In this document: positions 934 to 64,000 of the stretch, in pieces
How the letters are laid out: the number at the start of each line of letters is the position of its first letter
Numbering within the stretch: position 1 is the first letter of the stretch
Assembly: GCA_000004985.1 (NCBI GenBank)
Contig: GG738859.1
Strand: one strand, 5' to 3'
From: Naegleria gruberi
Taxonomy: Eukaryota
Length of the DNA: 64,000 nucleotides
Made by a program: the position numbers and the translations under genes
Notes under the pieces: model-generated
Seen by the model: the letters and a program-made list of their open reading frames with translations, nothing else
What the model was told of the DNA's origin: nothing
Database searches by the model: none

Positions 934-1148
934 TTTGTTTTGGCTTAATAAACTTTTTACCCTCCAAATGATTCAAGTTTTTAAGTTAATAAGTGGGACG
1001 AACTTATTTGGAAAATTGTTGAATGAAGAAATTGCATTAGAAAGTCAACGAACTAAGCTTTACTTTTGGAGAATTTACAAAAATCCAAAAGTCGATTTAC
1101 TAAATGTGGGTGGTTCCAAAAGGAGTTTACAGTTATTGTAATAATTAT

Positions 1149-12364: not shown

Positions 12365-12437
12365 GCCGACATAGCTCAGTTGGGAGAGCGTAAGACTGAA
12401 GATCTTAAGGTCCCTGGTTCGATCCCTGGTGTCGGCA
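12365..12437 (+). tRNA. tRNA-Phe (GAA)
   Basis: GCCGACATAGCTCAGTTGGGAGAGCGTAAGACTGAAGATCTTAAGGTCCCTGGTTCGATCCCTGGTGTCGGCA. Cloverleaf with 7-bp acceptor stem, GCTC/GAGC D-stem, TAAGA/TCTTA anticodon stem and loop CTGAAGA. T-arm CCTGG/CCTGG has one T:T mismatch (human tRNA-Phe has T:G there). Followed by a TTTT Pol III terminator (12441..). Confidence 0.85.
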
Positions 12438-34068: not shown

Positions 34069-34149
34069 CGCAAACTGCAGGATTTGAACCTGCGAGGGTT
34101 TCCCCACGAGATTTCGAGTCTCGCGCCTTAACCTCTCGGCCAAGTTTGC
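34069..34149 (-). tRNA. tRNA-Ser (CGA)
   Basis: Reverse complement: GCAAACTTGGCCGAGAGGTTAAGGCGCGAGACTCGAAATCTCGTGGGGAAACCCTCGCAGGTTCAAATCCTGCAGTTTGCG. It has a 3-bp D-stem, anticodon loop CTCGAAA, a long variable arm, T-stem GCAGG/CCTGC and discriminator G. A TTTT run follows on the minus strand. Confidence 0.85.
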
Positions 34150-44629: not shown

Positions 44630-45332
44630 TTTATTTGCATTATTAAAATTAATGTTTATCCAAATTACATATTTAAAATTCAACAAATGGACCTTCATGG
44701 CCTTGACACGATTTTCAGAGTGGTTTCACATCGTCATCTCAGTGTCATCTAAATAGTAGTAATAATAGTAATTTTTGAGTAATTAGTGAGAATGTTTCAT
44801 CATGAAATTTTGGATACAAGTTGGTGTTCCATCATCCGATCATTCACCAACCAATGATCATTATTGTTTTCCATCAATATTATAAGCAAGTTGGAAAACA
44901 TGTTCATTTATTATCAGATTTTGATCATCGTGTTGTAAATTTATCAAGTACCGATATTCAATGCTACCCAATTTTTGATCGTTTAGTACAATTTTCGCAA
45001 TACCCACTAACAATTTAAATTTCTTTAAACTTTGTTGATGGTATTTGACATAATCTTATCTTAATGATTAAATAGTCATTCATGAATACAAATCAGTATA
45101 TGCAAAATATTCAAATTAAAAAATATTGATACATGACACAGAGATAATTGCGTGCGAATTTCGTATAATTTCGAATAAGGTTTGTTGTGACCCTGAAATA
45201 GTTTGAAATCTCTTGAAGGTTTTAGAATGGACAAAGAGACGAAACAAACATGTGGTGCAATCACCATCTTGATATCTCCTGAAATTTGTAATATTGTTTC
45301 GTGTTTCAAGATATCAACAAAATCATAAAAAA

Positions 45333-47972
45333 ATGAAAGAAACGAAACAAGTCATTCCAATTGTCAAATCAAAAGATGAACGAGAGGTCGATGAGGAAAA
45401 TCCAAAGGATGACACATCAAGTGATCTTTTTATTCAAGAAGATAAGAGAAAGATTGCATTCTTTGGTTCAATTAAAATGTGGCTAATTTTGATAATTTCC
45501 ATAATTGTATTGTTGACAGTTTTTATTCTGTCAGCGATTTGGTTGAGCAGTTTTATGCCATCAGTGGTTTCGTATAGTTCAGAATTGAGAGATTTTGAGT
45601 TTAACAATATTATTTCATTTGTAGAACAGTTGATTAGAGAAGTGTCAATGTCAAGTGATAATGCCAAACATTTAATGTTGAAATCACTTGATTTTTCGAA
45701 TAGAGATCAGATAGAAGTGTTGATTTATCAGTTTTATAAGCAACAAAAGGGTTACATGAAAGGAGTTGTTGTCACTTGCAATATTGGTGACAATGAAGGA
45801 AGGTAAATACTTTACAACAGTTTTAATCTTTACATTCTTAAAGACAATATGGAGTTATGGACTGGGGAGGCAAGCAAGCCTTATTCAACATCACCACAAA
45901 AGATCAACAACTTTATTATTGTAATAATTTTGATGAATTGATTATTGTAATAGAAGTTCAATTCCTGACATTCAATTAGGATTTTTTGACTTGACTGTTA
46001 TGATTACAACAGGAAATACTCATCCAAACAAAGCAACCATGTCTCTAAGTTTCATAGATGCATCACAACCACAGTATACTTTCATTACCATGTATAATTC
46101 AATGCCATTAACTCAACCAGATCCAAAAGGAAACAAATTTAAATATTATTTGGCCATTGACATGTCTGCTGAGACTATTTCTCAATATTTAGCGAATGCA
46201 ACTTCTAAAATAAGTGGTTCTAAGAGTTTTATTATTGAAATGGCAACTCAATATATGATTGCAAGTAAGTTTAACAATGAACAAGGTAAAAAGTTTACAA
46301 TAATTGAAAGATGACAATTCCAATGCAAGAGTTGCAGTTGTTAATTCAGATGGATCTGTCACAAGACAAACCTATCTCAAAATTGATAATGATGAAAGAG
46401 TTTCGTCAATTGCTCGTATATTAGAAAAAAATTATGGAACTAGTTTGAATATTAAATGCAATACCAAGTATTTGATTACATCTGCAACTGATTACATTTC
46501 AGTTTATAGATTATGCACAGATACTGATGTTGATTGGTAAGTAACCTAAACGAGCTAGAAATGTAATAATTATTCGAAATAGGTTGTTTGTGTTGGCAGT
46601 TCCTCAATGGAATTATATTAGTTCAATTGTTATTGCTGTAATTTGTGCTACTCTTGGTGCCACATTAATTGTCACAACAGGTGTAGCCATTTCCATCTTC
46701 ATTTCAGTCAGATTAGTGAAACCATTTTACAACTTGATTGATTTATTCGAAAGTGTTTCTCACATGGATTTGGATAATTTAATAATTCATGATTCCAAAT
46801 TTACAGAAGTTAAACATTTACAAACTCATTTCAAAACCATGACAGATAGAATCAAACTTTACAGAGCTTTCATTCCATCACATTTACTTTCTCAATTAGA
46901 TCAAGGAGGTGGCAACAATGAAAACAATGGAGGTCAAGATTCAAAGAAGAAACACGATGCTTCAATGGATTCCTCTCATAAATCCTCAAAAGAATCTGCT
47001 TGGAGTAGAAGTCATGCAGGAGATAGTTCAAGTTCACATCGAAGATATTCGAATGATTTGGATATTTTCTCACTTCATTTGGATCGAAAGAAATTATCCA
47101 TTGTTGCAATTCATATTGAAGGGTTGAATAGATTATTCTCTGAAATATCAGCAGGAGACTGTGTTGATTTATTGAAAGATTTCTTTGATCATTTGGGATT
47201 AGTTTGTAGAACAAGTAATGGTTATCTGGGAAATTTTGAAAATGATTTAATTTCAATTTCATTCAATGCAAGTTCAAATCAATCGAAACATTCAGAAAAA
47301 GCAGCTTCAGCATGTGTTCAATTAATGGAAAAGTTGAACACAACCAAATCAAAGAAATGGCCAAATCAATTGAAAAAGAAACCTCACTTGATTGAAATTG
47401 TTAAATTTAGATTTGCAATTTGTGTTCAAGAATCATTGTGTGGAAATTTGGGATCTAATGATTTTAAGAATTTCACAGTTATTTCAAGTGCCAAATTCAA
47501 TTTGGAATGCATGTTGGATGTTGCATCAAAATTGAATTTGAATATTGTATTATCTGATAGAGTATTTGCAAATTTAGAAGAACATTATCAAATGAGATAT
47601 GTTTATACGAAAGAATTAATTCCAGATTCACATTATTCATCTCCATTTATTCAACACAAAGAAAATGAAAGAGCACCAATTGAACCAACACATATTTATG
47701 AATTGGGTGAAAGCTTACATATTGGAATGGATGGTAAGTTTACAATATTTAATAATATTTCGAAATATTTACAATTTAACAATTTATTAGAATGGATGTA
47801 TGAATTACAAGAAAAGGAAAAGAAAGCAAAATGGACCAAATACAATCAAGCTTGCAAACTCTTCTTCTCAAATCAATTCGAAGAAGCTAAGGAACTCTTC
47901 AAAGAATATCATGAACTCAACAATGATGTGGCGGCTGAATTACTAATGCACAAATGTTCCAAAATTAATTAA
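45333..47972 (+). CDS. receptor-type cyclase-homology-domain protein, copy 1 (5 exons; carries a -1 frameshift in exon 2, so a possible pseudogene or assembly error)
   Basis: Exons 45333..45802, 45844..46264, 46311..46536, 46583..47733, 47791..47972, all with GTAAAT/GTAAGT donors. Topology: short cytoplasmic N-terminus, TM1 (IAFFGSIKMWLILIISIIVLLTVFILSAIWLSSF), ~330-aa extracellular domain, TM2 (LFVLAVPQWNYISSIVIAVICATLGATLIVTTGVAISIFISV), Ser-rich linker, CHD (SIVAIHIEGLNRLF..GYLGNFENDLISISF..FRFAICVQESLCGNLG..FNLECMLD). Relative to copy 2, one C is missing near 45937 (GAATTGATTATTGT vs GAACTTGATTATTGT), giving an in-frame TAG at 45977..45979. The last intron (57 nt) is in-frame and stop-free, so the track ORF reads through it. 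Confidence 0.6.
47031..47727. repeat. near-100% identical inverted-repeat tract (partner at ~53073..53763): putative gene-conversion segment within the diverged paralog pair
   Basis: Direct reading: the reverse complements of 53701..53760 and 53101..53160 are base-for-base identical to the corresponding copy-1 sequence, including synonymous sites. The encoded 231 aa (SSHRRYSNDLD..ELGESLH) are identical. Outside the tract the copies differ (extracellular domain ~70-75% aa identity). The left boundary has a small indel (copy 1 has extra GGAGATAGTTCA). Confidence 0.8.
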
Positions 47973-48303: not shown

Positions 48304-51300
48304 TTATTTTTGGAGAAATATTCTAAAATTGCTAAGAACTTCTTCTAAGTTACCTCCAGTTTCATTAATCATTTTACTACCCTTCGCATAATTCTGCTCG
48401 ATATCCAATCCATACATGTATATTACTCCTAACTTTTGCTTTGCATCTATATCACTATCGTCAAATTCAAGAGCCCTTGTATACCACACAAAAGCTTCCT
48501 TGAAATCATTCTTAAATGCATGAAAATCTGCAAGAATCGTCATGCTGTCTTTAACTTGCATTTCTATTGCCTTATTGATCCAATACAAGAATAGTGCGTC
48601 GTCTTGATCCACTCCCTCGCCATGCATATATGAAATAGCAACATTTTTCATTGAATTACTGTCCCCAATAAGTGCAGCTTGTAAGCTGTATTGGAAAGAT
48701 TTTTGAAGATTATCTGAGTCGAAATAAATGGTTGATAATTTTGTCATGCAATATATATTTCCCAATTCGGCTCCTTTGGTGTAGTAAGGGATGGGATCAC
48801 CATTCGAATTGAAATAGTAATAATCTCCTAGTTTCATAAATGCTTCATCGTTGTTGTGAAGAGAAGATCTTTCGAATAATGAAAGAGCTTTTTTCAAGTC
48901 TTTCTCATATCCGATTTCAACACTTCCAATTTCGTACAATTCGCCCAAGTAGTTGAGAGCAGGACCATAGTCGTATCTAGCTGCTAGCTCTATTAATTTT
49001 AGTCCAAACCTTTCGTTTGATAAAACCTTGGACTTTCCAAAATCGAAGCAAGCTTTCGGATCAAAAAGAATTTTGTTCCTTACTTGCTTCACCTCTTGTA
49101 GTACAGTAATAAGAGTCTTTCCAAAAAGTAAATTAATTCCCAATTCTAATTGTAAGCCTTCTTGAGCAGCACAAAACAATTCTTGTTTCAAAAACTCTTC
49201 ATAATTTGGCATTTCAGAGTTGATCTCATAAACAGAACAGGAAAAGTCAATTTTCAGTTTCTTTGGTACCAATTCTCGATTAGTAAATTGTGTTTCATCA
49301 AACCCAGATATAAACAGAACATGCTTGTTGGATATCACGGATTCAATTGCAGTTTTCATTCCGCTTTCTGATAAATTTTGAATGGTTGTTTTAAGATTGA
49401 ACAAAACTAGCTCTTTTGATTGGATCGTAAAAAATTCGTACATTAAATTGAAAAACTCTGCAAGAAACTGAGCTCTATGTTTGATAGTAAGTGCTCTCCC
49501 AATAAATTCGCTTATTTTCTTCATGATTTTTTCTCCAAAATTATTGGAAGTATTTGCAAGTAATAGGTCGAAAATCTCCAATCTAATACTTTCCAAAATG
49601 TGATCCTTATCATTTTGTACAGATATGCGTATATTGTGCTCTTTCAGTTCCAGAGTTTTAGTTATGCAATCAACCATTTGTTGATATACTTCAGAAGCAA
49701 GAGAAGAGCTTTTTTTCAAGGCACCTCTTTTCGATTGATGGTAGTGAGGATATCCAGGGAAATTATCTATAAATCTCAAATCCTCTTCTCTAGTTGCTAC
49801 AGAAATTACACCATTCTTTGGAGAGCCCACTGCATGATTGACAATTTCACAAAGTCTTCTCATTTCCTTATTCCAATTTTCATCATTTGTCCAGTTAGAT
49901 CCATGATGGTCTACGTAGGCATGTCTTACTCCAACCCAATCTTTAAAAACATCTGGTTCAAATGGACGAATATCTTCTTGTTTGATTTCTTCATCAAACA
50001 AGCCAGGTTCAAATATTTTGACATTATCTACAATTAAATCATCCCAGCATACAAAGAATTGATCTCCGTCCAAATCTGATCCTGATATCATATTTGGTAC
50101 AGGTCTTTTACCTTTTGATGAAAAAACAATAACATCACACAAGTGAGATAATTTGGGATAGTAAACTGCTTTGATTTTTCTCAAGTCACCTCTATGAAGA
50201 CAAGGTTCTTTTGTCAATACAATTTCTTTCTGTAGAACTTGTTTGTGACTTGGATTTTTAAATGAAGAAATCTGAACAAATACCTCTCCTTCATTGAGGA
50301 CTTCATAAGGATCTACCACTCCATATAATCTTCTTGAATTTGAGAATGGAATTTTCAATGATGTTATGAGACTCTTGTATGGACCAGCCAGAAATGCAAA
50401 TCCTTTGTTTTTTGTGGTTGAGAGAACATTAAGGGAAATCAAATTATTATCTTTCATATATTGCCTCGCAATAACTTCAGTATCTTCATGAACGTATTTG
50501 TCTAAAGAGTTTTGAACGTGAGCAGATGCCATCTCTAATACTCTCTTTCTCACTTCTCCGTTAGAATCACATCCACTCAGTAAGTGCATGATTGTAGAGT
50601 TGACTCTTGTTAATTCGCATGGACTGGAATGACCAACTATTTGAAGAGTGCTAAAACTTTGGTCAACTTTTTCATTAGTTTTACATTTGACCATTGATTC
50701 TCTCAGTACAATGTGAACTCTATACTTTTCAAATGTTTCAGTATTAACAACAAGCATTCCTTTTGCTCCTCTAAATCTAATTTGAAACGCTGAAGGAATG
50801 TAAGAGCTATCAGAAAACAAATCAAAACCACGTTGCTCATCATATCCAATTTCATCTTCCTCTTGATCAGTTTTTATCAAAACTCTATTTTCGGCATTCA
50901 AGATGTGTTTGTAAACTTTCTTAGCCATGTCTGGAGAAATAAATCCACAACCATCTGTAAAGTTGAAACCATCTCTTTCAATATCTGGAATTACTGTGAA
51001 ATATTGAATGATTTCTGTTGGGATCACTGGTGTATTATAAAGAGCCAATCTAATTCTCTGCTTTAATATATTTTTCGAATCATACAGAGTTGGATTAAGC
51101 TCTTTAGGAATTGCCCATTCTTTAATTTGTTCAACAGTTGAGAGCTTTCTTGTTGGATCCTGCGTATTTGCTAATTGAGGGCAACAATACACATACTTAT
51201 ATGAATGCATTCCACTAGTATTTTGGCAAAGAATATTAAATTGATATTTTCCAAATTTGAAAGGTAATGGATTGATATTGTCTTTAAATGCTTTCTTCCA

Positions 51301-52071
51301 AGTTATCAACTCATTTCTAAATCTTGATTGATGTTTCAATTTCTTGATGTACTCCTTATCAAACACATCATTAATAATATCAGTATCCTGTTTCAGAATT
51401 TTCATTTTGGTCAACAGGAAGAAAAAATCGATTTCTTCAAAGCTAAATGGATTGAGAATAGAACCATTCATTTGTTCATCTCGAACCATTCTTTGAGATT
51501 TCAATCCCATTCTCGAGAATATAAACGATACATTCAATATGCAATCACCTCCAAACTCTTGTCTAAATCTTCCAATAACAAAATTGTCTTTTGGTGAGCT
51601 TTTAAATATAACACATAGCTCTGCTTTCTCAGCAGCAATAAAAGAATAGAACGTAATTGACCTCATTCTACTCAATTTCAATCCTGCCCTTCCATCAGAA
51701 TACGATTTATCATCTTTTCCTTCCAAAAACCAGTTGTTGATACTTTCCAAACCTTCGGGGTAGGTAACTATTACCTTCTTACTAACTTTCTTCATTAATT
51801 CGAATCTCTGATCGAAGGACATACCTGAATAACCTTCCCCTCTGAGATGACTCAATCTGGCAAGACAAATACCAGCATCATGTTCATTCCGAATCAATGG
51901 AAGTGTTTTATTTCGAGAAAGATGATAACAGTAGAAGAGATTATCTATTAATTGCTCGGTGGACGAATTTGCTGTTGTTTGATTGTTAGAATCATTCTGT
52001 TTGAAGGGCATTTCATGGTTTTTGTTAATGGAGAAAAGTTTGGGAAGGTTTGCAGTGAATTGTGTGAACAT
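48304..52071 (-). CDS. cellular RNA-dependent RNA polymerase (RDR/QDE-1 family) fused to C-terminal Sel1-like repeats, 1255 aa, single exon
   Basis: ATG 52071..52069, TAA 48306..48304. RdRP catalytic region ..PCLHRGDLRKIKAVYYPKLSHLCDVIVFSSKGKRPVPNMISGSDLDGDQFFVCWDD (DxDGD motif; cf. plant RDR ..VVFPQKG.RPHPNECSGSDLDGD.YFVSWD) at ~50050..50095. The last ~230 aa are Sel1/TPR-like repeats (..AISYMHGEGVDQDDALFLYWINKAIEMQ..; ..LGVIYMYGLDIEQNYAKG..). Confidence 0.85.
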   Translation of the reverse strand: MFTQFTANLPKLFSINKNHEMPFKQNDSNNQTTANSSTEQLIDNLFYCYHLSRNKTLPLIRNEHDAGICLARLSHLRGEGYSGMSFDQRFELMKKVSKKVIVTYPEGLESINNWFLEGKDDKSYSDGRAGLKLSRMRSITFYSFIAAEKAELCVIFKSSPKDNFVIGRFRQEFGGDCILNVSFIFSRMGLKSQRMVRDEQMNGSILNPFSFEEIDFFFLLTKMKILKQDTDIINDVFDKEYIKKLKHQSRFRNELITWKKAFKDNINPLPFKFGKYQFNILCQNTSGMHSYKYVYCCPQLANTQDPTRKLSTVEQIKEWAIPKELNPTLYDSKNILKQRIRLALYNTPVIPTEIIQYFTVIPDIERDGFNFTDGCGFISPDMAKKVYKHILNAENRVLIKTDQEEDEIGYDEQRGFDLFSDSSYIPSAFQIRFRGAKGMLVVNTETFEKYRVHIVLRESMVKCKTNEKVDQSFSTLQIVGHSSPCELTRVNSTIMHLLSGCDSNGEVRKRVLEMASAHVQNSLDKYVHEDTEVIARQYMKDNNLISLNVLSTTKNKGFAFLAGPYKSLITSLKIPFSNSRRLYGVVDPYEVLNEGEVFVQISSFKNPSHKQVLQKEIVLTKEPCLHRGDLRKIKAVYYPKLSHLCDVIVFSSKGKRPVPNMISGSDLDGDQFFVCWDDLIVDNVKIFEPGLFDEEIKQEDIRPFEPDVFKDWVGVRHAYVDHHGSNWTNDENWNKEMRRLCEIVNHAVGSPKNGVISVATREEDLRFIDNFPGYPHYHQSKRGALKKSSSLASEVYQQMVDCITKTLELKEHNIRISVQNDKDHILESIRLEIFDLLLANTSNNFGEKIMKKISEFIGRALTIKHRAQFLAEFFNLMYEFFTIQSKELVLFNLKTTIQNLSESGMKTAIESVISNKHVLFISGFDETQFTNRELVPKKLKIDFSCSVYEINSEMPNYEEFLKQELFCAAQEGLQLELGINLLFGKTLITVLQEVKQVRNKILFDPKACFDFGKSKVLSNERFGLKLIELAARYDYGPALNYLGELYEIGSVEIGYEKDLKKALSLFERSSLHNNDEAFMKLGDYYYFNSNGDPIPYYTKGAELGNIYCMTKLSTIYFDSDNLQKSFQYSLQAALIGDSNSMKNVAISYMHGEGVDQDDALFLYWINKAIEMQVKDSMTILADFHAFKNDFKEAFVWYTRALEFDDSDIDAKQKLGVIYMYGLDIEQNYAKGSKMINETGGNLEEVLSNFRIFLQK

Positions 52072-52806: not shown

Positions 52807-55490
52807 CTACAATTCACTAATAGGTGTTGTAGTTGAACATTTTTTAATCATCAATTCAGCTGCCACATCATTGTTGAGTTCATGAAATTCCTGGAATAAT
52901 TCTCTAGCTTCTTCGAATTGATTTGAGAAGAAGAGTTTGCAAGCTTGATTGTATTTGGTCCATTTTGCTTTCTTTTCCTTTTCTTGTAATTCATACATCC
53001 ATTCTAATAAATAGTTAAATTATAAATATTTCGACAAATTATTAAATATTGTAAACTTACCATCCATTCCAACATGTAAGCTTTCACCCAATTCATAAAT
53101 ATGTGTTGGTTCAATTGGTGCTCTTTCATTTTCTTTGTGTTGAATAAATGGAGATGAATAATGTGAATCTGGAATTAATTCTTTCGTATAAACATATCTC
53201 ATTTGATAATGTTCTTCTAAATTTGCAAATACTCTATCAGATAATACAATATTCAAATTCAATTTTGATGCAACATCCAACATGCATTCCAAATTGAATT
53301 TGGCACTTGAAATAACTGTGAAATTCTTAAAATCATTCGATCCTAAATTTCCACACAATGATTCTTGAACACAAATTGCAAATCTAAATTTAACAATTTC
53401 AATCAAGTGAGGTTTCTTTTTCAATTGATTTGGCCATTTCTTTGATTTGGTTGTGTTCAACTTTTCCATTAATTGAACACATGCTGAAGCTGCTTTTTCT
53501 GAATGTTTTGATTGATTTGAACTTGCATTGAATGAAATTGAAATTAAATCATTTTCAAAATTTCCCAGATAACCATTACTTGTTCTACAAACTAATCCCA
53601 AATGATCAAAGAAATCTTTCAATAAATCAACACAGTCTCCTGCTGATATTTCAGAGAATAATCTATTCAATCCTTCAATATGAATTGCAACAATGGATAA
53701 TTTCTTTCGATCCAAATGAAGTGAGAAAATATCCAAATCATTCGAATATCTTCGATGTGAACTAGAGGCATGACTTCTACTCAAGCTAGATTGTTTGGAG
53801 TCTAATCTCGAAGATCTCTGAGAGGATTTATGAGAGGAAGCCATAGAAATGGAATCATTTTCATGAGCTTTCTTTTTGGCGTCAACATGATCTCCTCCTT
53901 GATCTAATTGAGAAAGTAAATGTGATGGAATGAATGCTCTGTAAAGTTTGATTCTATCTGTCATGGTTTTGAAATGATTTTGTAAATGTTTCACTTCTGT
54001 AAATTTGGAATCATTAATTACTAAATTATCCAAATCCATATGAGAAACACTTTCGAATAAATCAATCAAGTTGTAAAATGGTTTCACTAGTTTGACTGAA
54101 ATAATGACAGATGTTATAACACCTGCAGAAATTATAATACATGCGCCTAGAGTAGCACAAATTACAGCAATAACAATTGAACTAATATAATTCCATTGAG
54201 GAACTGCCAACACAAACAACCTATTTCGAATAATTATTATAGAGTTCGAAATTGATTTGCTAACTTACCAATCAACATCAGTATCTGTGCATAATCTATA
54301 AACTGAAATGTAATCAGTTGCAGATGTAATTAATGATTTGTTTCCACATCCAATAGTATCCAATTCTGTTCCCAATTCCGAAGCCAATACCTTGGCGATT
54401 GACGAAACTCTTTCATCATTATCAATTTTGAGATAGGTTTGTCTTGTGACAGATCCATCTGAATTAACAACTGCAACTCTTGCATTAGAATTGTCATCTT
54501 TCAATTATTGTAAACTTTTTACCTTTTTCATTGTTAAACTTACTTGCAATAATGTATTGAGTTGCCATTTCAATAATAAAACTCTTTGAACCACTCAATT
54601 TCAACGTGACCTGTGCCAAATATTGAGAAATAGTCTCAGCAGACAAATCTGTTCCTAAGTAATATTTAAATTTGTTTCCTTTCGAATCTGGTTGAGGTAA
54701 CGCAATAGAATTAACCATTGTAATGAAAGTATACTGTGGTTGTGATGCATCTATGAAACTATTAGTGATGGTTGGTTTTCCTGGATGTGCATTTCCAGCA
54801 TTAATCAAAATTGTCAAATCAAAAAATCCTAATTGAATATCTGGAGTTGAACTTCTATTACAATAATCAAGTTCATCAAAGTTATTACAATAATAAAGTT
54901 GTTGATCTTTGGTGGTGATGTTGAATAATGTAGGTTTTCCTCCCCAGTCCATAATTCCATATTGTCTTAAGAAATTAATGAAATATTGTAAAGATTAAAA
55001 CTTTTGTAAAGTACTTACGTACTTACCTTCCTTCATTGTCACCAATGTGATTTGTAACAACTAAACCTTTAAGATAGGTCCACTGTTGTTTCAAAAACTG
55101 ATAAATCAACACTTCTATCTGATCTCTATTCGAAAAGTCAAGTGTTTTCATCATTAAATGTTTACCAGTTTCACTTGTCATTTTTACTTCTCTAATTGTT
55201 TGTTTGACAAATGCAATAATATTATCAAATTCAAAATCTCTTAGTTCCTTGCTATATTCAACAACTGAAGGAATGAAACTACTCAACCAAATTGCTGACA
55301 GGATAAAAACTGTCAATAATACAATTACAGAAATAATTAGAATCAACCACATTTTAATTGAACCAAAGAATGCAATCTTTCTTGCGTCTTGTTGAAAATT
55401 ATCGCTTGAAGTATCTTCGATAGGTTGAGTATTATCTTCTGTTGCATCGTGCTGGGATCTGACAGGAATGACTTGTGTCGTTTCTTTCAT
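52807..55490 (-). CDS. receptor-type cyclase-homology-domain protein, copy 2 (intact paralog of the gene at 45333..47972, inverted), 5 exons, ~823 aa
   Basis: Exons complement(55027..55490), (54544..54965), (54269..54497), (53061..54220), (52807..53003). Introns of 61, 46, 48 and 57 nt at positions homologous to copy 1. Start chosen at the conserved AAAATCATAAAAAAATGAAAGAAACG context; an upstream in-frame ATG at 55544 is an alternative. Same 2-TM + extracellular domain + CHD architecture as copy 1. The C-terminal ~231 aa are identical to copy 1. Confidence 0.7.
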
Positions 55491-56994
55491 TTTTTTATGA
55501 TTTTTTCTATTGGGTATTGAGCTTGTTTGATGCTCAATCATCATGCATTTTTAGTTGCCAACATTAAGAATAGGTTGATGAAATACTAAATGCATCTTGT
55601 TTCGTAAATTTTTTCGGTCATTAGACCAAGAGATATTTGGTAAAGTCCTTAATTGAACAATACATTTGTTGCATCTGGACTTGTCATTTGCCATTAAATA
55701 ACAAGATGAAAATGTACATGCAAATAATAAGTTCAATGGATACAGATGTTGATGGGAGTTTTGTCATCTCTGGGAATACAGTTCTTTTCGCCAGCTGTTG
55801 ACTTGTCATTAACAAATGGATTTCCGTTTGTCTATATATTGTTAGCCTTCTTCCCCTTCTTTCTACCTCATTTCAGATCAGATAGTATCCAAAATCTGTG
55901 GAAATGTTTTTCCCGCTTTTTTCTAGTGCTCCCTCTTTAAAAGGAAATATTTAGTTTAATACATGGTATAACATCTTGAATTTTACACGGGTGATTTCAT
56001 ATCATGTATACTATATCCTATTCATTTTTGAATATTTAATCTTTTGTTTTCATTGAGATAATTAGTGAGTTATGACATCATATACCTTTTTGGGAAAAGT
56101 GATTTTTCGCTCAACTACTTAATATCGAATATTGAATTTTGTGGTGGTAAGAGATAAGATCAGATACTAATACCATGTGTAATTTTTTTTTACGAATTGT
56201 TGTGTATTAAGGAGGATATGCTTGGTTAAAGTTGGTGAATTTTTTTGTGAAATTAAAATAAAATGGAAGTTTATTAGAAGGAGAGTTATTTTTTGGCGCG
56301 AAGTTTCTTTCCCATAGAGAGAAAGGTTTCGGCCAGCAGTTTTCTAAAGTCTGAATACTTGATTCGAACAGTTTCATTCATAATAGCGAACAAGTTATAA
56401 AAAAAATCATTGAGACCGGTCCGGAATCGCTGTTTCTTGAGATATTCCAATTATATAGATGCTGATATTGATTTCTATCACTCAGAAACGTTATCAATAT
56501 CAGTTATAAGAGTACTGGTATGATGTTCAATCATGTTGTACATCTTGATATGACTTGTCATATTATCATGAGTAGTTAGTGACATGGTTAAATGACATGA
56601 ATACTGAATGATGTCCAAATGATTTGAAATTGATAGAAACCTCATTATATGATGTTAATAACATATTGTATCAATTTGGTATTGAATCTCATTGTCCTTA
56701 GGGTACTTCGCTATTGAGGTACCTTAATTGACCATCTCTATGTTTAAATTGAGATATGATATTTATTTCAATTGTATCATTTTGTAAATGATGGATAAGT
56801 GGCCTAGTTGTGTATGGTGTAGAATTGGTATAACATTATTTTCAACATTTACAAGTGCCATTTCTCATCATCTGTTGGACCAAAACAAAAATTTTTGTTA
56901 TAGTGGTGGTTTTTTTACTAATATCCACATGTACAATATCGGAACAAGGAGATGCTCTATAGTTGTGCAGAATCATTCCACCAACAATAAGTTT

Positions 56995-59230
56995 TTGAAA
57001 TATTCTTTTCTTAGTGAACTTTGCTTGCATCATAATTATTAAGGAATTGTTTCAAGTAGATGGAAAGTGTTCTAAAATTGCTGTAGATGGTAACATTCCG
57101 TTACAGCATAGTTAAATTCTAAGAAATGATTGAGATTTGTGATTTTTTCACAACTGTTATCTTTTAAACAATGGTTGTCATCCAACCCGATGTAAAAACT
57201 TTTTGAAATTGTTTCAAATGAGCTTGGAGTGGCTCAAACCCGTTGCTTCTTTTCAAAAAAGAGACTTATCCAACCTTTTGAATGAGACTGTATTATACTA
57301 TACAACAAACTGAAATTTATTCTTTCTTACTGAACTTTTCTTACTTCACAATTATTAAGGAATTTTTTCAAGTAGATGGAAAATGTTCCAAACTCGATGG
57401 AAATGGGGGCAGTCCTTTTCAGTATACTCAAAATCTCAATAATGATTGAGATTGGTCGATTTTTCACAACTGTAATCTTTAAAACAGTGGTTCCAACCCG
57501 CTTGTGGAACAAATTGAAATTGTTTCAAATGAACATGGTGGGGCTCAAACCCGTTGCTTCTTTTCGAAAGAGTGACGTAGCCAACCTTTTGACAAGACTG
57601 TATTATACTATACAACAAATTAAAATTTTTGCATTCTTACTGAACTTTTCTTACTTCACAATTATTAAGGAATTTTTTCAAGTAGATGGAAAATGTTCCA
57701 AAATCGATGGAAATGGTGGAAGTCCTTTAAAGTGTACTTAAATTCTCAATAATGATTGAGATCAGTCGATTTTTCACAACTGTAATCTTTAAAACAGTGG
57801 TTGTCATCCAACCCGATGTAACAACTACTATTAAATATTTCAAATGAGCTTGGAGTTGCTCAAACCCGTTGCTTCTTCTCAAAACAGTGACTTATTCAAC
57901 CTTTTGGTGGGGATTGTACAATAATGTTCAACAAATTAACATTGTCTTTTCTTAGTGAACTTTTCCTTCATCCTAATTATTAAGGAATTTTTACAAGTAG
58001 ATGGAAAATGTTCAAAACTGGCTATAGATGGTATAATTCCATTGAACTATACTCAAATTCTTAATAATGATTGAGATTGGTCGATTTTTCACAACTGTTA
58101 TCTTTGAAACAGTGATTTCATCCAACCACGCTTTAATAACAACTCCATGGACTGGCTCAAACCCGTTGTAAAATTAAATTAAACTTTCTCAAATGAGCTT
58201 GGCGTGGCTCAAACCCGGTGTGCTTACGTAAAATTCAATCGGAATACAATTTTAACTGGTATTCTGGCAAAGAGCCAACATTTTCACAATTAAACTTTCT
58301 TACTGAACTTTGAATATTTCACATAGTAAGGAATTTTTTCAAGTAGATGGAAAATGTTCCAAACTCGATAGAAATGGTACCAGTCCTTTACAGTATACTT
58401 AAATTCTCAAAAATGATTGAGATTTGCCATTTTTTCACAACTGTAATCTTTAAAACAGTGGTTGTAATCCAACCCGCTTGTGGAACAATTTGAAAAGGTT
58501 TCAAATGAGCTTGGAGTGGCTCAAACCCGTTACTTCTTTTCAAAAAAGTTCCTGATCGAGCTATGTGGTGAGACTGTATTATAGTATACAACAAATTAAA
58601 ATTTTTGCATTCTTATTGAACTATGAATATTTCACAATTATTAAGGAATTTTTACAAGTGGTTGGAAAATGTTCTAAACTGTATGTAGATGGTAACATTC
58701 CATTGGAATATACTCAACATCTTAATAATGACTGAGATTAGTCGATTTTTCACAACTGTAATCTTTAAAACAGTGGTTGTCATCCAACCCGATGTAAAAA
58801 CTTTTTGAAATTGTTTCAAATGAACATGGATTGGCTCAAACCCGTTGCTTCTTTTCAAAAAAGTTCCTGATCGAGCAATGTGACGAGGCTGGAATATACT
58901 ATTCAACAAAGTAAATTGTTTGCAATCTTACTGAACTTTGAATATTTCAAAATTATTAAGGAATTTTTACAAGGGGATGGAAAATGTTCTAAACTGTATG
59001 TAGATGGTAACATTCCATTGGAGTATACTCAAATTCTTAATAATGATTGAGATCAGTCGATTTTTCACAAATGTTATCTTTAAAACAGTGGTTGTCGTCA
59101 AACCCGATGTAAAAACTACTTGAAATTGTTTCAAATGAACATGGTGTGGCTCAAACCCGTTGTAAAATTAAATTACACTTTCTCAAATGAGCTTGGTGTG
59201 GCTCAAACCCGGTGTGCTTATGTAAAGTTC
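56995..59230. repeat. subtelomeric satellite: ~310-345-bp unit, ~7 tandem copies, in two higher-order blocks
   Basis: The anchor CAAGTAGATGGAAAATGTTC(C/T)AAA recurs at ~57053, 57370, 57680, 57997, 58340, 58658 (variant) and 58969 (variant). Each unit also contains TTTCACAACTGTAATCTTTAAAACAGTGGTT and TTTCAAATGA(G/A)C(T/A)TGG.GTGGCTCAAACCCGTTGC. Two blocks (to ~58260 and to ~59230) each end with a duplicated GGCTCAAACCCG(T/G)TGT..AAATT motif. Track ORFs inside (57327.., 57376.., 57436.., 58388.., 58652..) are repeat artefacts. Confidence 0.75.
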
Positions 59231-60953
59231 AATCCAAGTAAATGGATACTTGATTCAATTCTTGTATGATGACAAGACCCAATATCTTCAATGAATCTTT
59301 CTCAGATTGCACCTATCACCAATAGGAATGTGTTCATGCTTCATACTTGTTTGATATTTACAAACTGAATGAGCTGGTGCGTATTCTATATATTGAAAAG
59401 TTACTTTTTGACAGATTGTTATTATTATCAAGTTATTTTCTATTCAGAATATCTAAAATTAATACAATATGTACAATAGTGTGATTAAACGTATCTGGTA
59501 AAGTTATAGGATGATTGGATGTACTTTCACTGAGATGAAGTGTTCACTATGGTATACCTAGGATTGACATTGAACATTTACTGATTAATTTTATGAAAGT
59601 AGTTTGAAATGTTTCTAAACTATTGTAGATGTATTTAATTGATATATAGACTATGTGGTATCAATTCTAGACTTATTATATGTAAAGGTTTTGGAAACGT
59701 GTTGTTTTGATTTGTTTCTTCTGTGGCTCCATGGTCTTTATGATCTGATATAGGGTTATTAAGCGCCGTTTGGGTATTTTGTTGGTTTTTTTAGTAAAGT
59801 TTTAAAAAAAGTATATAGTTCTTATCTAGTTATCGAGTTGTGGTGTAAATGTGTTGTTTTCAAGCTATTCGAAAGTAGTAACGATTTCGATATTCCGTTA
59901 CTTTGCGTCACTTTGCGGACGGACTTATATTCAATCAATTTGGTTGTCATTCATATTGATGCGTAGAATTTTTGAGATTATTTTTGAATGTACGTTATTT
60001 TTATCTACGCATGAATGAAAAGTACAACAATGATCAAGAGGAATTGAGTCATGAGTATGATACTTTCTCAGATTGTTCTACGCATCAAGAGTATTCGATT
60101 CAGGATTCTATTCATATATGATATTTGTTATAAATATATTGAATTGGATGAGATGGAGTGCCATCTTGTTGTTAAAAGTTGAGTCGACATTAAGGTATTC
60201 AGTAAATTGATACCACATGACTAATTAGAGTGATTATATGCCATTATATCAATTTCTTTGAAAACAGACTTGCTTCTGGACCTTTCAGATTTCTAGCCAC
60301 ATTGACAGATCACCATGTACTATCTACTGGATGCATTTCTTGAAATAAAAGTATATATTTTGAATAAAGTCCACTTTATTTGAGATGAACTACATGATAA
60401 TAAAGTTTATTTTGAGATTGTCAACTTTTTCTATAGTGACATCCTTAATTGTCTTAATTGACTCAAAGAGGCCAAGGAGAGATTTCAAATCATAAAATAA
60501 ATGATATTTTCGAGATTTAATAATGATTTACAATCGATTGATATGTATTTTGCTGATTGAGGATGTAGTTCTCTTATTGAATATTGCCCTGTCCTTCAAA
60601 GTCAACCTTGATAAATCACTCCTTACCTTACTATATGATGGAATGTTCACTAGAACGTCTGAAAACTGAAATATATACATTATTAGAGATTTAGAACATG
60701 ATTATATGATTTAATTTGAGAGTGGTAACTTGGCCGAACAACTTGTACATTATAGAGAGAGTTGACTTGGGTTTGGTACCTGGAACCTCTTGGGTTTGGG
60801 AACAGTCTTTTCAACATGAATTCATTGATTATTCTATATCTACTCATCATCTCAAATAAATTAATTATTATTTTTCTGGTCTGGTAATTGTGAAGATACT
60901 GTAGTTGTAAGTTTTACTTTTCATTGTGTATTTATAAAGATAATATATTTCTA

Positions 60954-62838
60954 NNNNNNNNNNNNNNNNNNNNNNNNNNNNNNNNNNNNNNNNNNNNNNN
61001 NNNNNNNNNNNNNNNNNNNNNNNNNNNNNNNNNNNNNNNNNNNNNNNNNNNNNNNNNNNNNNNNNNNNNNNNNNNNNNNNNNNNNNNNNNNNNNNNNNNN
61101 NNNNNNNNNNNNNNNNNNNNNNNNNNNNNNNNNNNNNNNNNNNNNNNNNNNNNNNNNNNNNNNNNNNNNNNNNNNNNNNNNNNNNNNNNNNNNNNNNNNN
61201 NNNNNNNNNNNNNNNNNNNNNNNNNNNNNNNNNNNNNNNNNNNNNNNNNNNNNNNNNNNNNNNNNNNNNNNNNNNNNNNNNNNNNNNNNNNNNNNNNNNN
61301 NNNNNNNNNNNNNNNNNNNNNNNNNNNNNNNNNNNNNNNNNNNNNNNNNNNNNNNNNNNNNNNNNNNNNNNNNNNNNNNNNNNNNNNNNNNNNNNNNNNN
61401 NNNNNNNNNNNNNNNNNNNNNNNNNNNNNNNNNNNNNNNNNNNNNNNNNNNNNNNNNNNNNNNNNNNNNNNNNNNNNNNNNNNNNNNNNNNNNNNNNNNN
61501 NNNNNNNNNNNNNNNNNNNNNNNNNNNNNNNNNNNNNNNNNNNNNNNNNNNNNNNNNNNNNNNNNNNNNNNNNNNNNNNNNNNNNNNNNNNNNNNNNNNN
61601 NNNNNNNNNNNNNNNNNNNNNNNNNNNNNNNNNNNNNNNNNNNNNNNNNNNNNNNNNNNNNNNNNNNNNNNNNNNNNNNNNNNNNNNNNNNNNNNNNNNN
61701 NNNNNNNNNNNNNNNNNNNNNNNNNNNNNNNNNNNNNNNNNNNNNNNNNNNNNNNNNNNNNNNNNNNNNNNNNNNNNNNNNNNNNNNNNNNNNNNNNNNN
61801 NNNNNNNNNNNNNNNNNNNNNNNNNNNNNNNNNNNNNNNNNNNNNNNNNNNNNNNNNNNNNNNNNNNNNNNNNNNNNNNNNNNNNNNNNNNNNNNNNNNN
61901 NNNNNNNNNNNNNNNNNNNNNNNNNNNNNNNNNNNNNNNNNNNNNNNNNNNNNNNNNNNNNNNNNNNNNNNNNNNNNNNNNNNNNNNNNNNNNNNNNNNN
62001 NNNNNNNNNNNNNNNNNNNNNNNNNNNNNNNNNNNNNNNNNNNNNNNNNNNNNNNNNNNNNNNNNNNNNNNNNNNNNNNNNNNNNNNNNNNNNNNNNNNN
62101 NNNNNNNNNNNNNNNNNNNNNNNNNNNNNNNNNNNNNNNNNNNNNNNNNNNNNNNNNNNNNNNNNNNNNNNNNNNNNNNNNNNNNNNNNNNNNNNNNNNN
62201 NNNNNNNNNNNNNNNNNNNNNNNNNNNNNNNNNNNNNNNNNNNNNNNNNNNNNNNNNNNNNNNNNNNNNNNNNNNNNNNNNNNNNNNNNNNNNNNNNNNN
62301 NNNNNNNNNNNNNNNNNNNNNNNNNNNNNNNNNNNNNNNNNNNNNNNNNNNNNNNNNNNNNNNNNNNNNNNNNNNNNNNNNNNNNNNNNNNNNNNNNNNN
62401 NNNNNNNNNNNNNNNNNNNNNNNNNNNNNNNNNNNNNNNNNNNNNNNNNNNNNNNNNNNNNNNNNNNNNNNNNNNNNNNNNNNNNNNNNNNNNNNNNNNN
62501 NNNNNNNNNNNNNNNNNNNNNNNNNNNNNNNNNNNNNNNNNNNNNNNNNNNNNNNNNNNNNNNNNNNNNNNNNNNNNNNNNNNNNNNNNNNNNNNNNNNN
62601 NNNNNNNNNNNNNNNNNNNNNNNNNNNNNNNNNNNNNNNNNNNNNNNNNNNNNNNNNNNNNNNNNNNNNNNNNNNNNNNNNNNNNNNNNNNNNNNNNNNN
62701 NNNNNNNNNNNNNNNNNNNNNNNNNNNNNNNNNNNNNNNNNNNNNNNNNNNNNNNNNNNNNNNNNNNNNNNNNNNNNNNNNNNNNNNNNNNNNNNNNNNN
62801 NNNNNNNNNNNNNNNNNNNNNNNNNNNNNNNNNNNNNN
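60954..62838. other. assembly gap (1,885 N)
   Basis: Uninterrupted run of n. The 641-668-aa all-X ORFs in the track across it are artefacts. Confidence 0.99.
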
Positions 62839-63649
62839 ATTGTGAACACAATGGTATCAATAGTTATATGATTCATGATAGTTTAAAATTGAGTTGGTCA
62901 TCTAAGGATAGGTCATTAAGGTTTGAATGAATTGATATGAAATTCAATACCAATTATTGAAATACCATGACTAACTGATCTATATATGATGCTATAATTG
63001 AAAGATTTTAAAATTAATATGATTTGATTATCTTGATATTCATTATTCCCATGATTACACTCCTGACATGTTGAATGATATCAAATTGTCATGAAACTGA
63101 TACAGTAGTGTTCATTCACCTTTTGTAAGGTACTGTATCAATTTCATAATGATCTGTAAAGTAGATGTCATTGTCACATCCCTGTAGGTATCAAGTGGAT
63201 CTGCCATGTACCATGTATGATATGGATGAATATCAAAATGATATTACTGTATTTCATTATCATGTGTAGATGTATTGGAAGTGAATTGAAGTGGTATAGA
63301 TTTCTATCTTCAATGTTAGTATAGGTCAGTTGACAAGTTGAATAGCAAATATCCTGAAATGATACCAAAGTATTTGAAATTGATATATATTGTTATTAAC
63401 ATGATTTATAAGGTGATATATTGATTTGAAATGAATTTGAAATGTTTTCATTGATATTTTAATTGTCTAATCTATTATATGAAATTAACTTATATAAGAC
63501 ATGATAATGATGTAATATTATGTTATATTATGATTATATATTCAATTTGGAGTATATTGATATATAATATATTGATTTATAATGAGTATTTATTGAGATA
63601 ATTAATTAAGATGAATAAAAGTCAAAATGTTGGGTCTGACCTTAGTCGT

Positions 63650-64000
63650 GGGTTTGGGTTTGGGTTTGGGTTTGGGTTTGGGTTTGGGTTTGGGTTTGGG
63701 TTTGGGTTTGGGTTTGGGTTTGGGTTTGGGTTTGGGTTTGGGTTTGGGTTTGGGTTTGGGTTTGGGTTTGGGTTTGGGTTTGGGTTTGGGTTTGGGTTTG
63801 GGTTTGGGTTTGGGTTTGGGTTTGGGTTTGGGTTTGGGTTTGGGTTTGGGTTTGGGTTTGGGTTTGGGTTTGGGTTTGGGTTTGGGTTTGGGTTTGGGTT
63901 TGGGTTTGGGTTTGGGTTTGGGTTTGGGTTTGGGTTTGGGTTTGGGTTTGGGTTTGGGTTTGGGTTTGGGTTTGGGTTCGGGTTTGGGTTTGGGTTTGGA
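63650..64000 (+). repeat. telomeric repeat (GGGTTT)n, ~58 units, running to the window end (chromosome terminus; G-rich strand 5'->3' toward the end)
   Basis: Perfect hexamer array from 63650. One variant unit GGGTTC at ~63974..63979. Preceded by AT-rich unique sequence and the satellite. Confidence 0.9.

What the first reader, a model, noticed from the sequence alone, without database searches (positions are those of the whole stretch)
56995..64000. Chromosome-end architecture: gene / 320-bp satellite / unique AT-rich spacer (with gap) / (GGGTTT)n telomere
The terminal repeat is a GGGTTT hexamer (i.e. TTTGGG), not the common TTAGGG/TTTAGGG types. It has a single GGGTTC variant near the distal end and the correct G-strand orientation for a genuine right-hand terminus. 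Proximal to it is a ~2.2-kb satellite whose units share a conserved GGCTCAAACCCGTTGC core (possible protein-binding or recombination motif) and show two higher-order blocks. The last gene (copy 2 of the receptor pair) ends only ~1.5 kb before the satellite.
Basis: seen in the sequence. Interest (0 to 1): 0.5.

Follow-up and report, generated by a model that had tools for sequence, protein, structure and literature searches.

The report
Naegleria chromosome end: TTTGGG telomere, satellite
This is an ordinary chromosome end of the amoeba Naegleria gruberi, carrying a (TTTGGG)n telomere whose motif was already published for this genome in 2013, plus a 315-bp subtelomeric satellite that appears undescribed but is unremarkable.

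Summary
The window is Naegleria gruberi: an RdRP ORF matches the NCBI N. gruberi protein at 100% identity.

- **Telomere array:** 58 hexamers (57 GGGTTT, 1 GGGTTC) occupy 63650-63997, followed by GG and a stray A at 64000. The G-rich strand runs 5'->3' into the end.
- **Satellite:** seven 310-316-bp monomers lie at 57008-59234, 69-87% identical to each other. They form two blocks, and each block ends in the same 95-bp "cap".
- **Spacer:** a sequence unique within the window runs from 59235 to 63649. It is interrupted by 1,885 N.

The interpretation as a chromosome end is supported, but the headline is not new. Fulneckova et al. 2013 (PMC3622300) already named TTTGGG as the candidate telomere of N. 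gruberi from this assembly.

Small additions:
- The period is 315 bp, not 320.
- The blocks are not a classical higher-order repeat.
- The invariant core GCTCAAACCCG contains one inverted telomere unit.
- Two telomere-like decamers sit in the spacer.
- Twelve of 12 TTTGGG-ended contigs from a probable heterolobosean in a culture metagenome show the telomere orientation.

Other N. gruberi scaffold ends could not be reached, and the telomere contig is joined only across a gap. The case for the satellite's novelty is narrow: three negative sequence searches and one full-text literature search for subtelomeres; the 2010 genome paper and the 2013 survey's supplementary table could not be read. Interest is low.

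The parts
52835..55504 (-). Last gene before the end: the distal copy of an inverted, duplicated receptor-type gene. It has a transmembrane N-terminus and what I read by eye as a cyclase-like C-terminal region; Pfam supports no domain call. ORFs are 53020-54219, 54494-54952 and 55023-55544. Its start codon faces the telomere.
   Evidence: ORF list. It is 86.3% identical over 2.7 kb to 45319-47959 on the + strand. Pfam gives no hit above the curated cut-off.
55545..57007 (.). Gene-free stretch between the last gene and the satellite: 1,463 bp, 31.1% GC.
   Evidence: Only ORFs of 84 aa or less. GC.
57008..59234 (+). Subtelomeric tandem satellite of seven monomers of 310-316 bp (U1-U7), arranged as two blocks, U1-U4 and U5-U7.
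   Evidence: TRF period 315, 6.8 copies, score 2011. Monomer alignment shows 69-87% identity. Not found elsewhere in the window. No Rfam match and no tRNA. No protein homologue for the 121-aa ORF across it. No support for a conserved RNA fold.
58146..58240 (+). Cap of block 1: a truncated monomer with a 52-bp re-duplication of the core (cores at 58154 and 58206).
   Evidence: Matches the cap of block 2 at 89 of 95 positions. Core positions.
59140..59234 (+). Cap of block 2, and the distal end of the satellite (cores at 59148 and 59200).
57231..57246 (+). First of nine copies of the conserved core GGCTCAAACCCGTTGC. The others start at 57542, 57857, 58154, 58206, 58518, 58833, 59148 and 59200. 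The core contains CAAACCC, one telomere unit in C-strand (inverted) orientation.
   Evidence: CAAACCCG occurs 10 times and CCAACCCG 5 times, all on the + strand and none outside the satellite.
59235..60953 (.). Proximal part of the spacer, unique within the window; 30.1% GC.
   Evidence: No self-similarity. No tandem repeats of note. GC.
60767..60800 (+). Two interstitial telomere-like words, TTGGGTTTGG at 60767 and TTGGGTTTGGG at 60790, in G-strand orientation.
   Evidence: One such 10-mer is not rare (0.68 expected per 59.5 kb), but two within 50 bp occurred in 0 of 300 Markov simulations.
60954..62838 (.). Scaffold gap of 1,885 N.
62839..63649 (.). Distal spacer on the terminal contig: 25.8% GC overall and 20.7% in the last 150 bp. 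The junction with the telomere is abrupt.
63650..63999 (+). Telomere array of 58 hexamers plus GG. The G-rich strand runs 5'->3' toward the end. There is one GGGTTC unit at 63974-63979.
   Evidence: The motif was published for N. gruberi (PMC3622300).
64000..64000 (+). Final base A, which breaks the repeat (G expected). Probably a read-end or vector artefact.

Best explanation
The region is the right-hand end of a Naegleria gruberi nuclear chromosome as assembled.

**Shown**
- A 350-bp, nearly perfect (TTTGGG)n array sits at the very end, with the G-rich strand running 5'->3' outward.
- It is preceded by a spacer that is unique within the window and mildly AT-rich.
- Inboard of the spacer lies a 2.2-kb satellite of 315-bp units that shows no sign of coding for protein or a conserved structured RNA.
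- A 1.5-kb gene-free stretch separates the satellite from the last gene.

**Inferred**
- Telomerase makes the array by copying a CCCAAA-containing RNA template onto the 3' end. The assembled 350 bp is a lower bound on its length.
- The satellite is a telomere-associated repeat. It grew by unequal exchange or replication slippage, and then by one duplication of a multi-monomer block together with its cap.
- It most likely acts as a passive buffer or heterochromatin substrate, not as a gene or an RNA.
For: **Organism:** the RdRP ORF is 100% identical to the NCBI N. gruberi protein on a 530,355-bp contig.

**Array:** position, purity and orientation come. The array ends 1 bp from the end of a fixed-length window. 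That is very unlikely unless the window was cut at a scaffold end (inference).

**Published precedent:** TTTGGG was reported as the candidate telomere of N. gruberi. The survey included only genomes in which the repeat dominates terminal positions (PMC3622300).

**Outside support:**
- In a metagenome scan for (GGGTTT)6, all 12 contigs from one culture metagenome (JAESGV01 / IMG 3300037860) carry the array at a contig end in the telomere orientation.
- These contigs use the standard genetic code.
- One carries tandem DYW-type PPR genes.
- The best named match of that PPR protein among 1.84 billion representatives is the heterolobosean Acrasis kona (E = 5.5e-173).
- DYW-PPR proteins are a known heterolobosean feature (PMC4202320).

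**Subtelomere:** it is gene-free, and GC falls toward the end.

**Satellite anatomy:**
Against: - Only one chromosome end could be examined.
- The 1,162-bp telomere contig is linked to the rest of the scaffold only across 1,885 N.
- Outside JAESGV01, terminal TTTGGG arrays in metagenome contigs are 16 in the telomere orientation and 13 in the opposite one. Orientation at a single end is therefore weak evidence on its own.
- The last 27 bases hold both deviations, GGGTTC and the final A.
- No experimental evidence for Naegleria (Bal31 digestion, TRAP, telomerase RNA) was found in the searchable literature.
- Sharing of the satellite among chromosome ends is untested.
- The satellite is absent from the probable heterolobosean contigs.
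Confidence: 0.87

Rival explanations
1. The telomere is real, but the architecture is partly an assembly construct. The short terminal contig (62839-64000) would belong to another chromosome end and was joined here by mate pairs across the gap.
For: The join is a 1,885-N gap. The terminal contig is only 1.16 kb. The GC of the distal spacer (25.8%) differs somewhat from the proximal spacer (30.1%).
Against: The proximal side already looks subtelomeric: it has the satellite, no genes, and two telomere-like decamers at 60767-60800. GC falls monotonically across the gap. No repeat is shared between the two sides that would promote a false join.
Confidence: 0.1
2. The array is an interstitial (TTTGGG)n microsatellite at which the assembly simply stopped, not a chromosome end.
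For: Assemblies do break at such arrays: 13 metagenome contigs end in TTTGGG arrays in the non-telomeric orientation. The final base A does not fit the repeat.
Against: - At 350 bp the array is longer than any array in the 120 metagenome loci, where the maximum is 141 bp.
- It is 99% pure.
- No other array is present in the window. GGGTTT and AAACCC hexamers are, if anything, under-represented in the first 57 kb upstream of the satellite: 7 and 2 observed against about 10 expected each.
- The published survey found the motif predominantly at scaffold termini.
Confidence: 0.03
3. The satellite is a functional array of protein-binding sites rather than neutral filler. Its invariant core carries one telomere unit (CAAACCCG, read as CGGGTTTG on the other strand). 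It would recruit the duplex telomere-repeat-binding (Myb-type) protein and so extend telomeric chromatin inward, in the way Tbf1 sites do in yeast subtelomeres or telo-boxes do in plants.
For: The longest invariant run of the monomer contains the telomere unit. There are 15 C[A/C]AACCCG octamers in 2.2 kb, all in one orientation, and none in the other 60 kb. The core is re-duplicated in both caps.
Against: A 7-nt telomere-phase match occurs in 15% of random 315-bp sequences of this composition. The core is only 1 nt longer than the next invariant run. Uniform orientation and number follow automatically from tandem repetition. No binding protein is known. The satellite is not seen at the probable heterolobosean ends.
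Confidence: 0.1
4. The satellite is a tandem array of small RNA genes, or is derived from a mobile element (SINE, MITE) or a virus.
For: The core loosely resembles a tRNA B-box, and short inverted repeats are present in the monomer (read from the sequence).
Against: - No Rfam match at E <= 1.
- No tRNA.
- Consensus folds are weak (-15 and -12.5 kcal/mol over 316 nt), and the covariation terms are unfavourable.
- No dispersed copies in the window.
- No match in viral contigs.
- No protein homologues.
Confidence: 0.03

Closest known systems
Candidate TTTGGG telomere of Naegleria gruberi (Fulneckova et al. 2013, PMC3622300)
   Same: Same motif, same species and the same public assembly. It was identified from terminal position and orientation on scaffolds.
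   Different: Nothing differs for the motif itself. The main text of that paper does not describe the subtelomere (satellite, spacer, interstitial telomere-like words). Its evidence is in silico only, and its supplementary table could not be read here.
Paramecium macronuclear telomeres: random mixture of TTGGGG and TTTGGG
   Same: TTTGGG is one of the two hexamers added by Paramecium telomerase (bioRxiv 10.1101/2025.11.06.686955). It is the same TxGy class, without the A of TTAGGG.
   Different: In Paramecium, TTTGGG arises from misincorporation at one template position and is interspersed with TTGGGG. Here 57 of 58 units are TTTGGG and none is TTGGGG.
Subtelomeric satellites or telomere-associated sequences in general. 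Examples from my own knowledge, not tested here: Plasmodium falciparum TARE/rep20 arrays, yeast X/Y' elements, plant HRS60/TGR1-type satellites.
   Same: Non-coding tandem repeats of hundreds of bp lie a few kb inside the telomere, between it and the first gene. Units have diverged, and there is evidence of block duplication.
   Different: No sequence relationship to any of them is claimed or tested. Sharing between chromosome ends, which is typical of such families, could not be tested here. The array is short (7 units).
Single-unit telomere motifs used as cis-elements. Examples from my own knowledge: plant telo-box AAACCCTA, yeast subtelomeric Tbf1 TTAGGG sites.
   Same: One telomere unit is embedded in the most conserved part of a non-telomeric sequence.
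   Different: No protein binding is known. The match is only 7 nt and is not significant on its own.
TTTGGG-ended contigs of an unidentified, probably heterolobosean, eukaryote in a terrestrial cyanobacterial culture metagenome (JAESGV01 / IMG 3300037860)
   Same: Pure TTTGGG arrays lie at 12 of 12 contig ends in the telomere orientation. The contigs are AT-rich, use the standard code and have long intron-poor ORFs.
   Different: No 315-bp satellite and no DNA or protein similarity to the window. Genes and a gypsy-like element lie within about 0.2-1 kb of the telomere. A 49-bp minisatellite is present at only 2 ends. The taxonomic assignment rests on one DYW-PPR protein with 31% identity to Acrasis kona.

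Membership tests
Telomerase-type telomeric minisatellite (TxGy class) | Short tandem unit (5-8 nt) with a G cluster, highly homogeneous | tested here: met
   58 units, 57 of them GGGTTT; 99% matches.
Telomerase-type telomeric minisatellite (TxGy class) | Located at the physical end of the sequence, with the G-rich strand 5'->3' toward the end | tested here: met
   The array occupies 63650-63999 of 64000 on the + strand. This is terminal only at assembly level, and one non-matching base follows.
Telomerase-type telomeric minisatellite (TxGy class) | Present at most or all chromosome ends, and rare or short internally | not testable with these tools
   Other N. gruberi scaffolds could not be fetched. 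Within the window there is no internal array. The published survey reports terminal predominance.
Telomerase-type telomeric minisatellite (TxGy class) | Synthesised by telomerase (TRAP product, TER template) and Bal31-sensitive | not testable with these tools
   This needs wet-lab work. No such data for Naegleria were found in the literature searches.
Subtelomeric satellite / telomere-associated sequence | Tandem array of units of tens to hundreds of bp, with no detectable coding or structured-RNA signal | tested here: met
   Seven monomers of 315 bp. No protein homologues, Rfam match, tRNA or conserved fold.
Subtelomeric satellite / telomere-associated sequence | Lies between the telomere and the first gene | tested here: met
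   The satellite ends 4.4 kb (gap included) from the array and starts 1.46 kb from the last ORF.
Subtelomeric satellite / telomere-associated sequence | The same repeat family is present at several chromosome ends | not testable with these tools
   No access to the rest of the genome. Absent from the rest of the window, from viral contigs and from the 120 metagenome loci.
Higher-order repeat (HOR) satellite | Monomers at equivalent positions of successive blocks are more alike than neighbouring monomers | tested here: not met
   U2-U5 is 86.7% identical, but U3-U6 is 77.4% and U4-U7 is 70.5%. U6-U7, which are neighbours, are 81.2% identical. Only the 95-bp caps correspond, at 94%.

The most novel reading that the evidence does not exclude
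The 315-bp satellite would be a functional extension of the telomere. Its invariant core presents one telomere unit (CGGGTTTG on the minus strand) about every 315 bp, and twice in each cap. Together with the two TTGGGTTTGG words in the spacer, these sites would seed binding of the duplex TTTGGG-binding protein several kb inboard. That would set up subtelomeric chromatin, silencing or recombination at Naegleria chromosome ends. In parallel, TTTGGG would be the ancestral telomere motif of Heterolobosea as a whole rather than a peculiarity of N. gruberi.
Probability: 0.1. Interest if true: 0.45.

Novelty: new member of a known kind. Interest (0 to 1): 0.2.

Why it matters
There is little that is new for telomere biology, because the TTTGGG motif of N. 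gruberi has been in the literature since 2013.

The useful residue is practical:
- It gives a concrete, coordinate-level description of one Naegleria chromosome end.
- It provides a candidate subtelomeric probe, the 315-bp satellite.
- It provides a simple motif to test for binding by telomere proteins.
- It hints that TTTGGG telomeres extend to another, probably heterolobosean, amoeba.

Naegleria lacks any experimental telomere characterisation. It is the sister of the pathogen N. fowleri, so these sequences could help when finishing long-read assemblies and designing Bal31, TRF or TRAP experiments.

Tried and rejected
1. **Reaching other N. gruberi chromosome ends.**
   - Exact-protein look-ups of window or N. 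gruberi proteins found no contigs on record.
   - The 121-aa ORF spanning a satellite monomer has no homologue among 5.8 billion proteins.
   - The satellite's presence at other ends therefore stays untested.
2. **Metagenome scan for (GGGTTT)6**. No locus shares DNA or protein similarity with the window. I first suspected that the JAESGV01 contigs were ciliate macronuclear DNA, because the telomere is added to unrelated sequences and L085 shows mixed TTGGGG/TTTGGG at its junction. I rejected that idea: ORFs of 1,000-1,250 codons are open under the standard code, and the best named relative of the DYW-PPR protein is Acrasis kona.
3. **Monomer as a dimer of an approximately 157-bp, nucleosome-sized unit.** Half-against-half local alignment scores are no better than shuffles, with z from -0.5 to 2.6.
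4. **Satellite as structured RNA, tRNA- or SINE-derived, or viral.** There are no Rfam or tRNA hits, consensus folds on both strands are weak with positive covariation terms, and viral contigs give no match.
5. **Hidden tandem structure in the "unique spacer".** Only trivial AT-rich micro-repeats were found.
6. **Pfam assignment for the "receptor" pair.** Nothing scored above the curated cut-off. The cyclase-like call rests on my reading of the sequence and on the neighbouring paralogous family (ORF 22606-25089 hits Guanylate_cyc weakly).
7. **The 2010 N. gruberi genome paper and the 2013 supplementary table** are not held, so they could not be checked.


Full report
**Identity of the window.** The window is AT-rich (33% GC) and gene-dense, with long ORFs that have few introns. 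The 1,255-aa ORF at 48304-52071 (minus strand) is 100% identical to "RNA dependent RNA polymerase [Naegleria gruberi]" on a 530,355-bp contig. The window is therefore nuclear DNA of the heterolobosean amoeboflagellate N. gruberi.

**Telomere array.**
- TRF finds a 6-bp array at 63649-63999, 58.5 copies, 99% matches.
- Parsed exactly, it is 58 in-register hexamers at 63650-63997 (57 GGGTTT and one GGGTTC at 63974-63979), then GG, then a final A at 64000 that does not fit the repeat.
- All 57 overlapping 12-mer matches are on the + strand and inside the array, against 0.28 expected.
- No comparable array exists elsewhere in the window.

**Satellite.**
- TRF finds a 315-bp-period array at 57007-59162, 6.8 copies, 76% matches.
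- I resolved seven monomers, U1-U7, of 310-316 bp. Pairwise identity is 69-87%.
- The core GGCTCAAACCCGTTGC occurs nine times at up to 3 mismatches against 0.08 expected. All copies are on the + strand and inside the satellite.
- GCTCAAACCCG is the longest invariant run at 11 nt, only slightly longer than the next ones of 10 and 9 nt.

**Gap, spacer and last gene.**
- The gap is 1,885 N at 60954-62838.
- The spacer has no similarity to the rest of the window.
- It is only mildly AT-rich. GC runs 33.4% (genes), 31.1% (gene-to-satellite gap), 32.6% (satellite), 30.1%, 25.8%, and 20.7% in the last 150 bp.
- The last ORF (55023-55544) is on the minus strand. It is therefore the gene's start that faces the telomere, 1,463 bp from the satellite.

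**Anatomy of the satellite.** U4 and U7 both stop short and end in the same 95-bp cap. The cap is the core, then 36 bp, then a second copy of the core in a GGTGT variant, then GCTTAYGTAAARTTCAATC. The two caps (58146-58240 and 59140-59234) match at 89 of 95 positions, which is better than any pair of whole monomers. The array is thus two runs, U1-U4 and U5-U7, each closed by the same cap. The simplest explanation is one duplication of a multi-monomer block together with its end. It is not a classical higher-order repeat, because positional homologues are not consistently closer than neighbours: U2-U5 is 86.7%, U3-U6 77.4%, U4-U7 70.5% and U6-U7 81.2%.

**What the satellite is not.**
- It has no Rfam match at E <= 1 and no tRNA.
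- Its consensus RNA folds are weak on both strands, and the covariation terms are unfavourable.
- It has no half-monomer periodicity.
- The longest ORF across it has no protein homologue.
- Its conserved blocks have no match in viral contigs.

**Telomere-like words inside the subtelomere.**
- The invariant core contains CAAACCC, one telomere unit in the C-strand orientation, which is inverted relative to the terminal array.
- CAAACCCG occurs 10 times and CCAACCCG 5 times in the satellite. All are on the + strand, and none lies elsewhere in the window. In the first 57 kb, upstream of the satellite, the plain hexamers are, if anything, under-represented: AAACCC 2 and GGGTTT 7 observed against about 10 expected each.
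- This is suggestive but not significant alone. 15% of random 315-bp sequences of this composition contain a 7-nt telomere-phase match, and once such a match sits in a monomer, tandem repetition multiplies it automatically.
- Separately, TTGGGTTTGG and TTGGGTTTGGG lie 23 bp apart at 60767-60800 in the G-strand orientation. One such 10-mer is not rare (0.68 expected), but two within 50 bp occurred in 0 of 300 simulations. This may be a relic of an older end or a short interstitial telomeric site.

**Is it a telomere?** The evidence from the window:
- The array is terminal, and the G-strand points outward.
- It is long and pure.
- It has an abrupt junction with the spacer.
- It follows about 8.5 kb without genes in an otherwise gene-dense genome.
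- It ends one base from the end of a fixed-length 64,000-bp window. That would be a remarkable coincidence unless the window was cut at the scaffold end (inference).

From the literature, Fulneckova et al. 2013 searched 143 genome assemblies. They listed TTTGGG as the unexpected candidate telomere of N. gruberi and included only genomes with a convincing terminal pattern. They state that experiments are still needed (PMC3622300). I found no later paper in the library linking Naegleria to this motif, to telomerase, or to subtelomeres.

**Calibration from the metagenome scan.** A scan of metagenome contigs for (GGGTTT)6 returned 120 loci.
- Outside one assembly, terminal arrays are 16 in the telomere orientation and 13 in the opposite one. 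Orientation at a single end is therefore weak evidence, and assemblies do break at such microsatellites.
- All 12 contigs of JAESGV01 carry the array at an end in the telomere orientation. JAESGV01 is IMG 3300037860, a non-axenic terrestrial cyanobacterial culture (PMC8354539).
- These contigs use the standard genetic code.
- One contig carries two tandem DYW-type PPR genes.
- The best named relative of one of them, among 1.84 billion representatives, is from the heterolobosean Acrasis kona, with E = 5.5e-173 and 31% identity.
- DYW-PPR proteins are a known feature of Naegleria and Acrasis (PMC4202320).
- This is modest independent support that TTTGGG caps chromosomes in heteroloboseans beyond N. 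gruberi.
- Those ends lack the 315-bp satellite. Their genes or a gypsy-like element lie within about a kilobase of the telomere, and a 49-bp minisatellite is present at only two ends.

**Caveats.**
- The telomere-bearing contig is 1,162 bp long and is joined to the rest of the scaffold only across the N gap, so the full architecture depends on scaffolding.
- The GGGTTC unit and the final A both lie in the last 27 bases. True variant repeats are usually proximal.
- The 350 bp is a lower bound on telomere length.
- I could not fetch any other N. gruberi scaffold.

**Mechanism.**
- Most likely (about 0.87), this is a genuine chromosome end. Its G-strand is extended by telomerase copying a CCCAAA-containing template (inferred from the general mechanism; not shown for Naegleria).
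- The satellite is a telomere-associated repeat that expands and contracts by unequal exchange and block duplication, and serves as a buffer between the telomere and the first gene.
- A more interesting but weakly supported reading (about 0.1) is that the telomere unit in the core makes the satellite an array of binding sites for the duplex telomere-binding protein.
- Rivals:
  - mis-scaffolding of the terminal contig (about 0.1);
  - an interstitial microsatellite at an assembly break (about 0.03);
  - an RNA-gene or mobile-element origin of the satellite (about 0.03).

**Comparison and novelty.**
- The motif belongs to the TxGy class, like ciliate TTGGGG. TTTGGG itself is one of the two hexamers in Paramecium macronuclear telomeres, where it arises by template misincorporation and is mixed with TTGGGG. 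Here it is essentially the only unit.
- The motif in N. gruberi is already published.
- The satellite, its cap structure and the telomere-like words turned up in none of the searches I could run. These were the protein search with the longest satellite ORF, the viral-contig scans, the comparison with the metagenome loci and one full-text search of the paper library for Naegleria plus subtelomeres. No search was made for a Naegleria satellite as such. The 2010 genome paper and the 2013 survey's supplementary table could not be read. Either way, they are an instance of a very common kind of feature.

**Verdict.** Novelty is low: a new member of a known kind, with the headline already known. Interest is about 0.2.

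Noticed in passing
window 45319-47959 (+) and 52835-55504 (-): A 2.7-kb inverted duplication (86.3% identity) carries two receptor-type (cyclase-like, by my reading) genes. The two copies flank the RdRP gene at 48304-52071, forming a palindromic three-gene unit next to the subtelomere.
   Followed up: partly
window 48304-52071 (-): An RNA-dependent RNA polymerase is fused to Sel1 repeats. Beyond Naegleria and two unnamed ENA metagenome proteins (33% and 37% identity, probably Naegleria relatives), the closest hits are bdelloid rotifers (Rotaria, Adineta; about 35% identity over a quarter of the protein), ahead of plants and fungi.
   Followed up: no
window 60767-60800: Two telomere-phase words, TTGGGTTTGG and TTGGGTTTGGG, lie 23 bp apart in the G-strand orientation, about 2.85 kb (including the 1,885-N gap) inside the terminal array. 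This could be a relic of an older end or a short interstitial telomeric site. Two such words within 50 bp were seen in 0 of 300 simulations.
   Followed up: partly
window 57231-59215 (nine cores): The satellite's invariant core GCTCAAACCCG contains one telomere unit in inverted orientation. A second, weaker copy (CCAACCCG, or CAAACCCG in U7) lies about 55 bp upstream in most monomers.
   Followed up: partly
window 64000 and 63979: The last base (A) breaks the repeat, and the only variant unit (GGGTTC) is 21 bases from the end. Both are probably low-quality read-end bases or a cloning remnant.
   Followed up: no
L005, L028, L029, L040, L054, L078, L080, L084, L085, L086/L121, L106, L120 (JAESGV01 / IMG 3300037860): Twelve of 12 contigs from a terrestrial cyanobacterial culture metagenome end in TTTGGG arrays in the telomere orientation. 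They use the standard code. One carries tandem DYW-PPR genes and a gypsy-like element beside a telomere. The best named relative of one PPR protein is Acrasis kona. This is probably an unrecognised heterolobosean amoeba living in the culture.
   Followed up: partly
L080 4286-6059 vs L106 8070-9843 (coordinates after I reoriented both loci so the telomere is at the right end): A 1.8-kb segment (91.6% identity) runs right up to the telomere in L106 but is internal in L080, 660 bp from that contig's telomere. This suggests paralogous ends or alleles with different telomere-addition points.
   Followed up: no
window 10085-11002 and 11221-12306 (+): Two adjacent G-protein alpha-subunit-like ORFs lie in tandem, followed by tRNA-Phe at 12365-12437. 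A tRNA-Ser lies at 34069-34149.
   Followed up: no
window 1149-3569 (-) / 1066-1668 (+): A long acidic, low-complexity protein ORF has a serine-rich antisense ORF on the opposite strand. This is probably a compositional artefact of the Asp/Glu-rich codon run (GAA/GAT read on the other strand as TTC/ATC).
   Followed up: no
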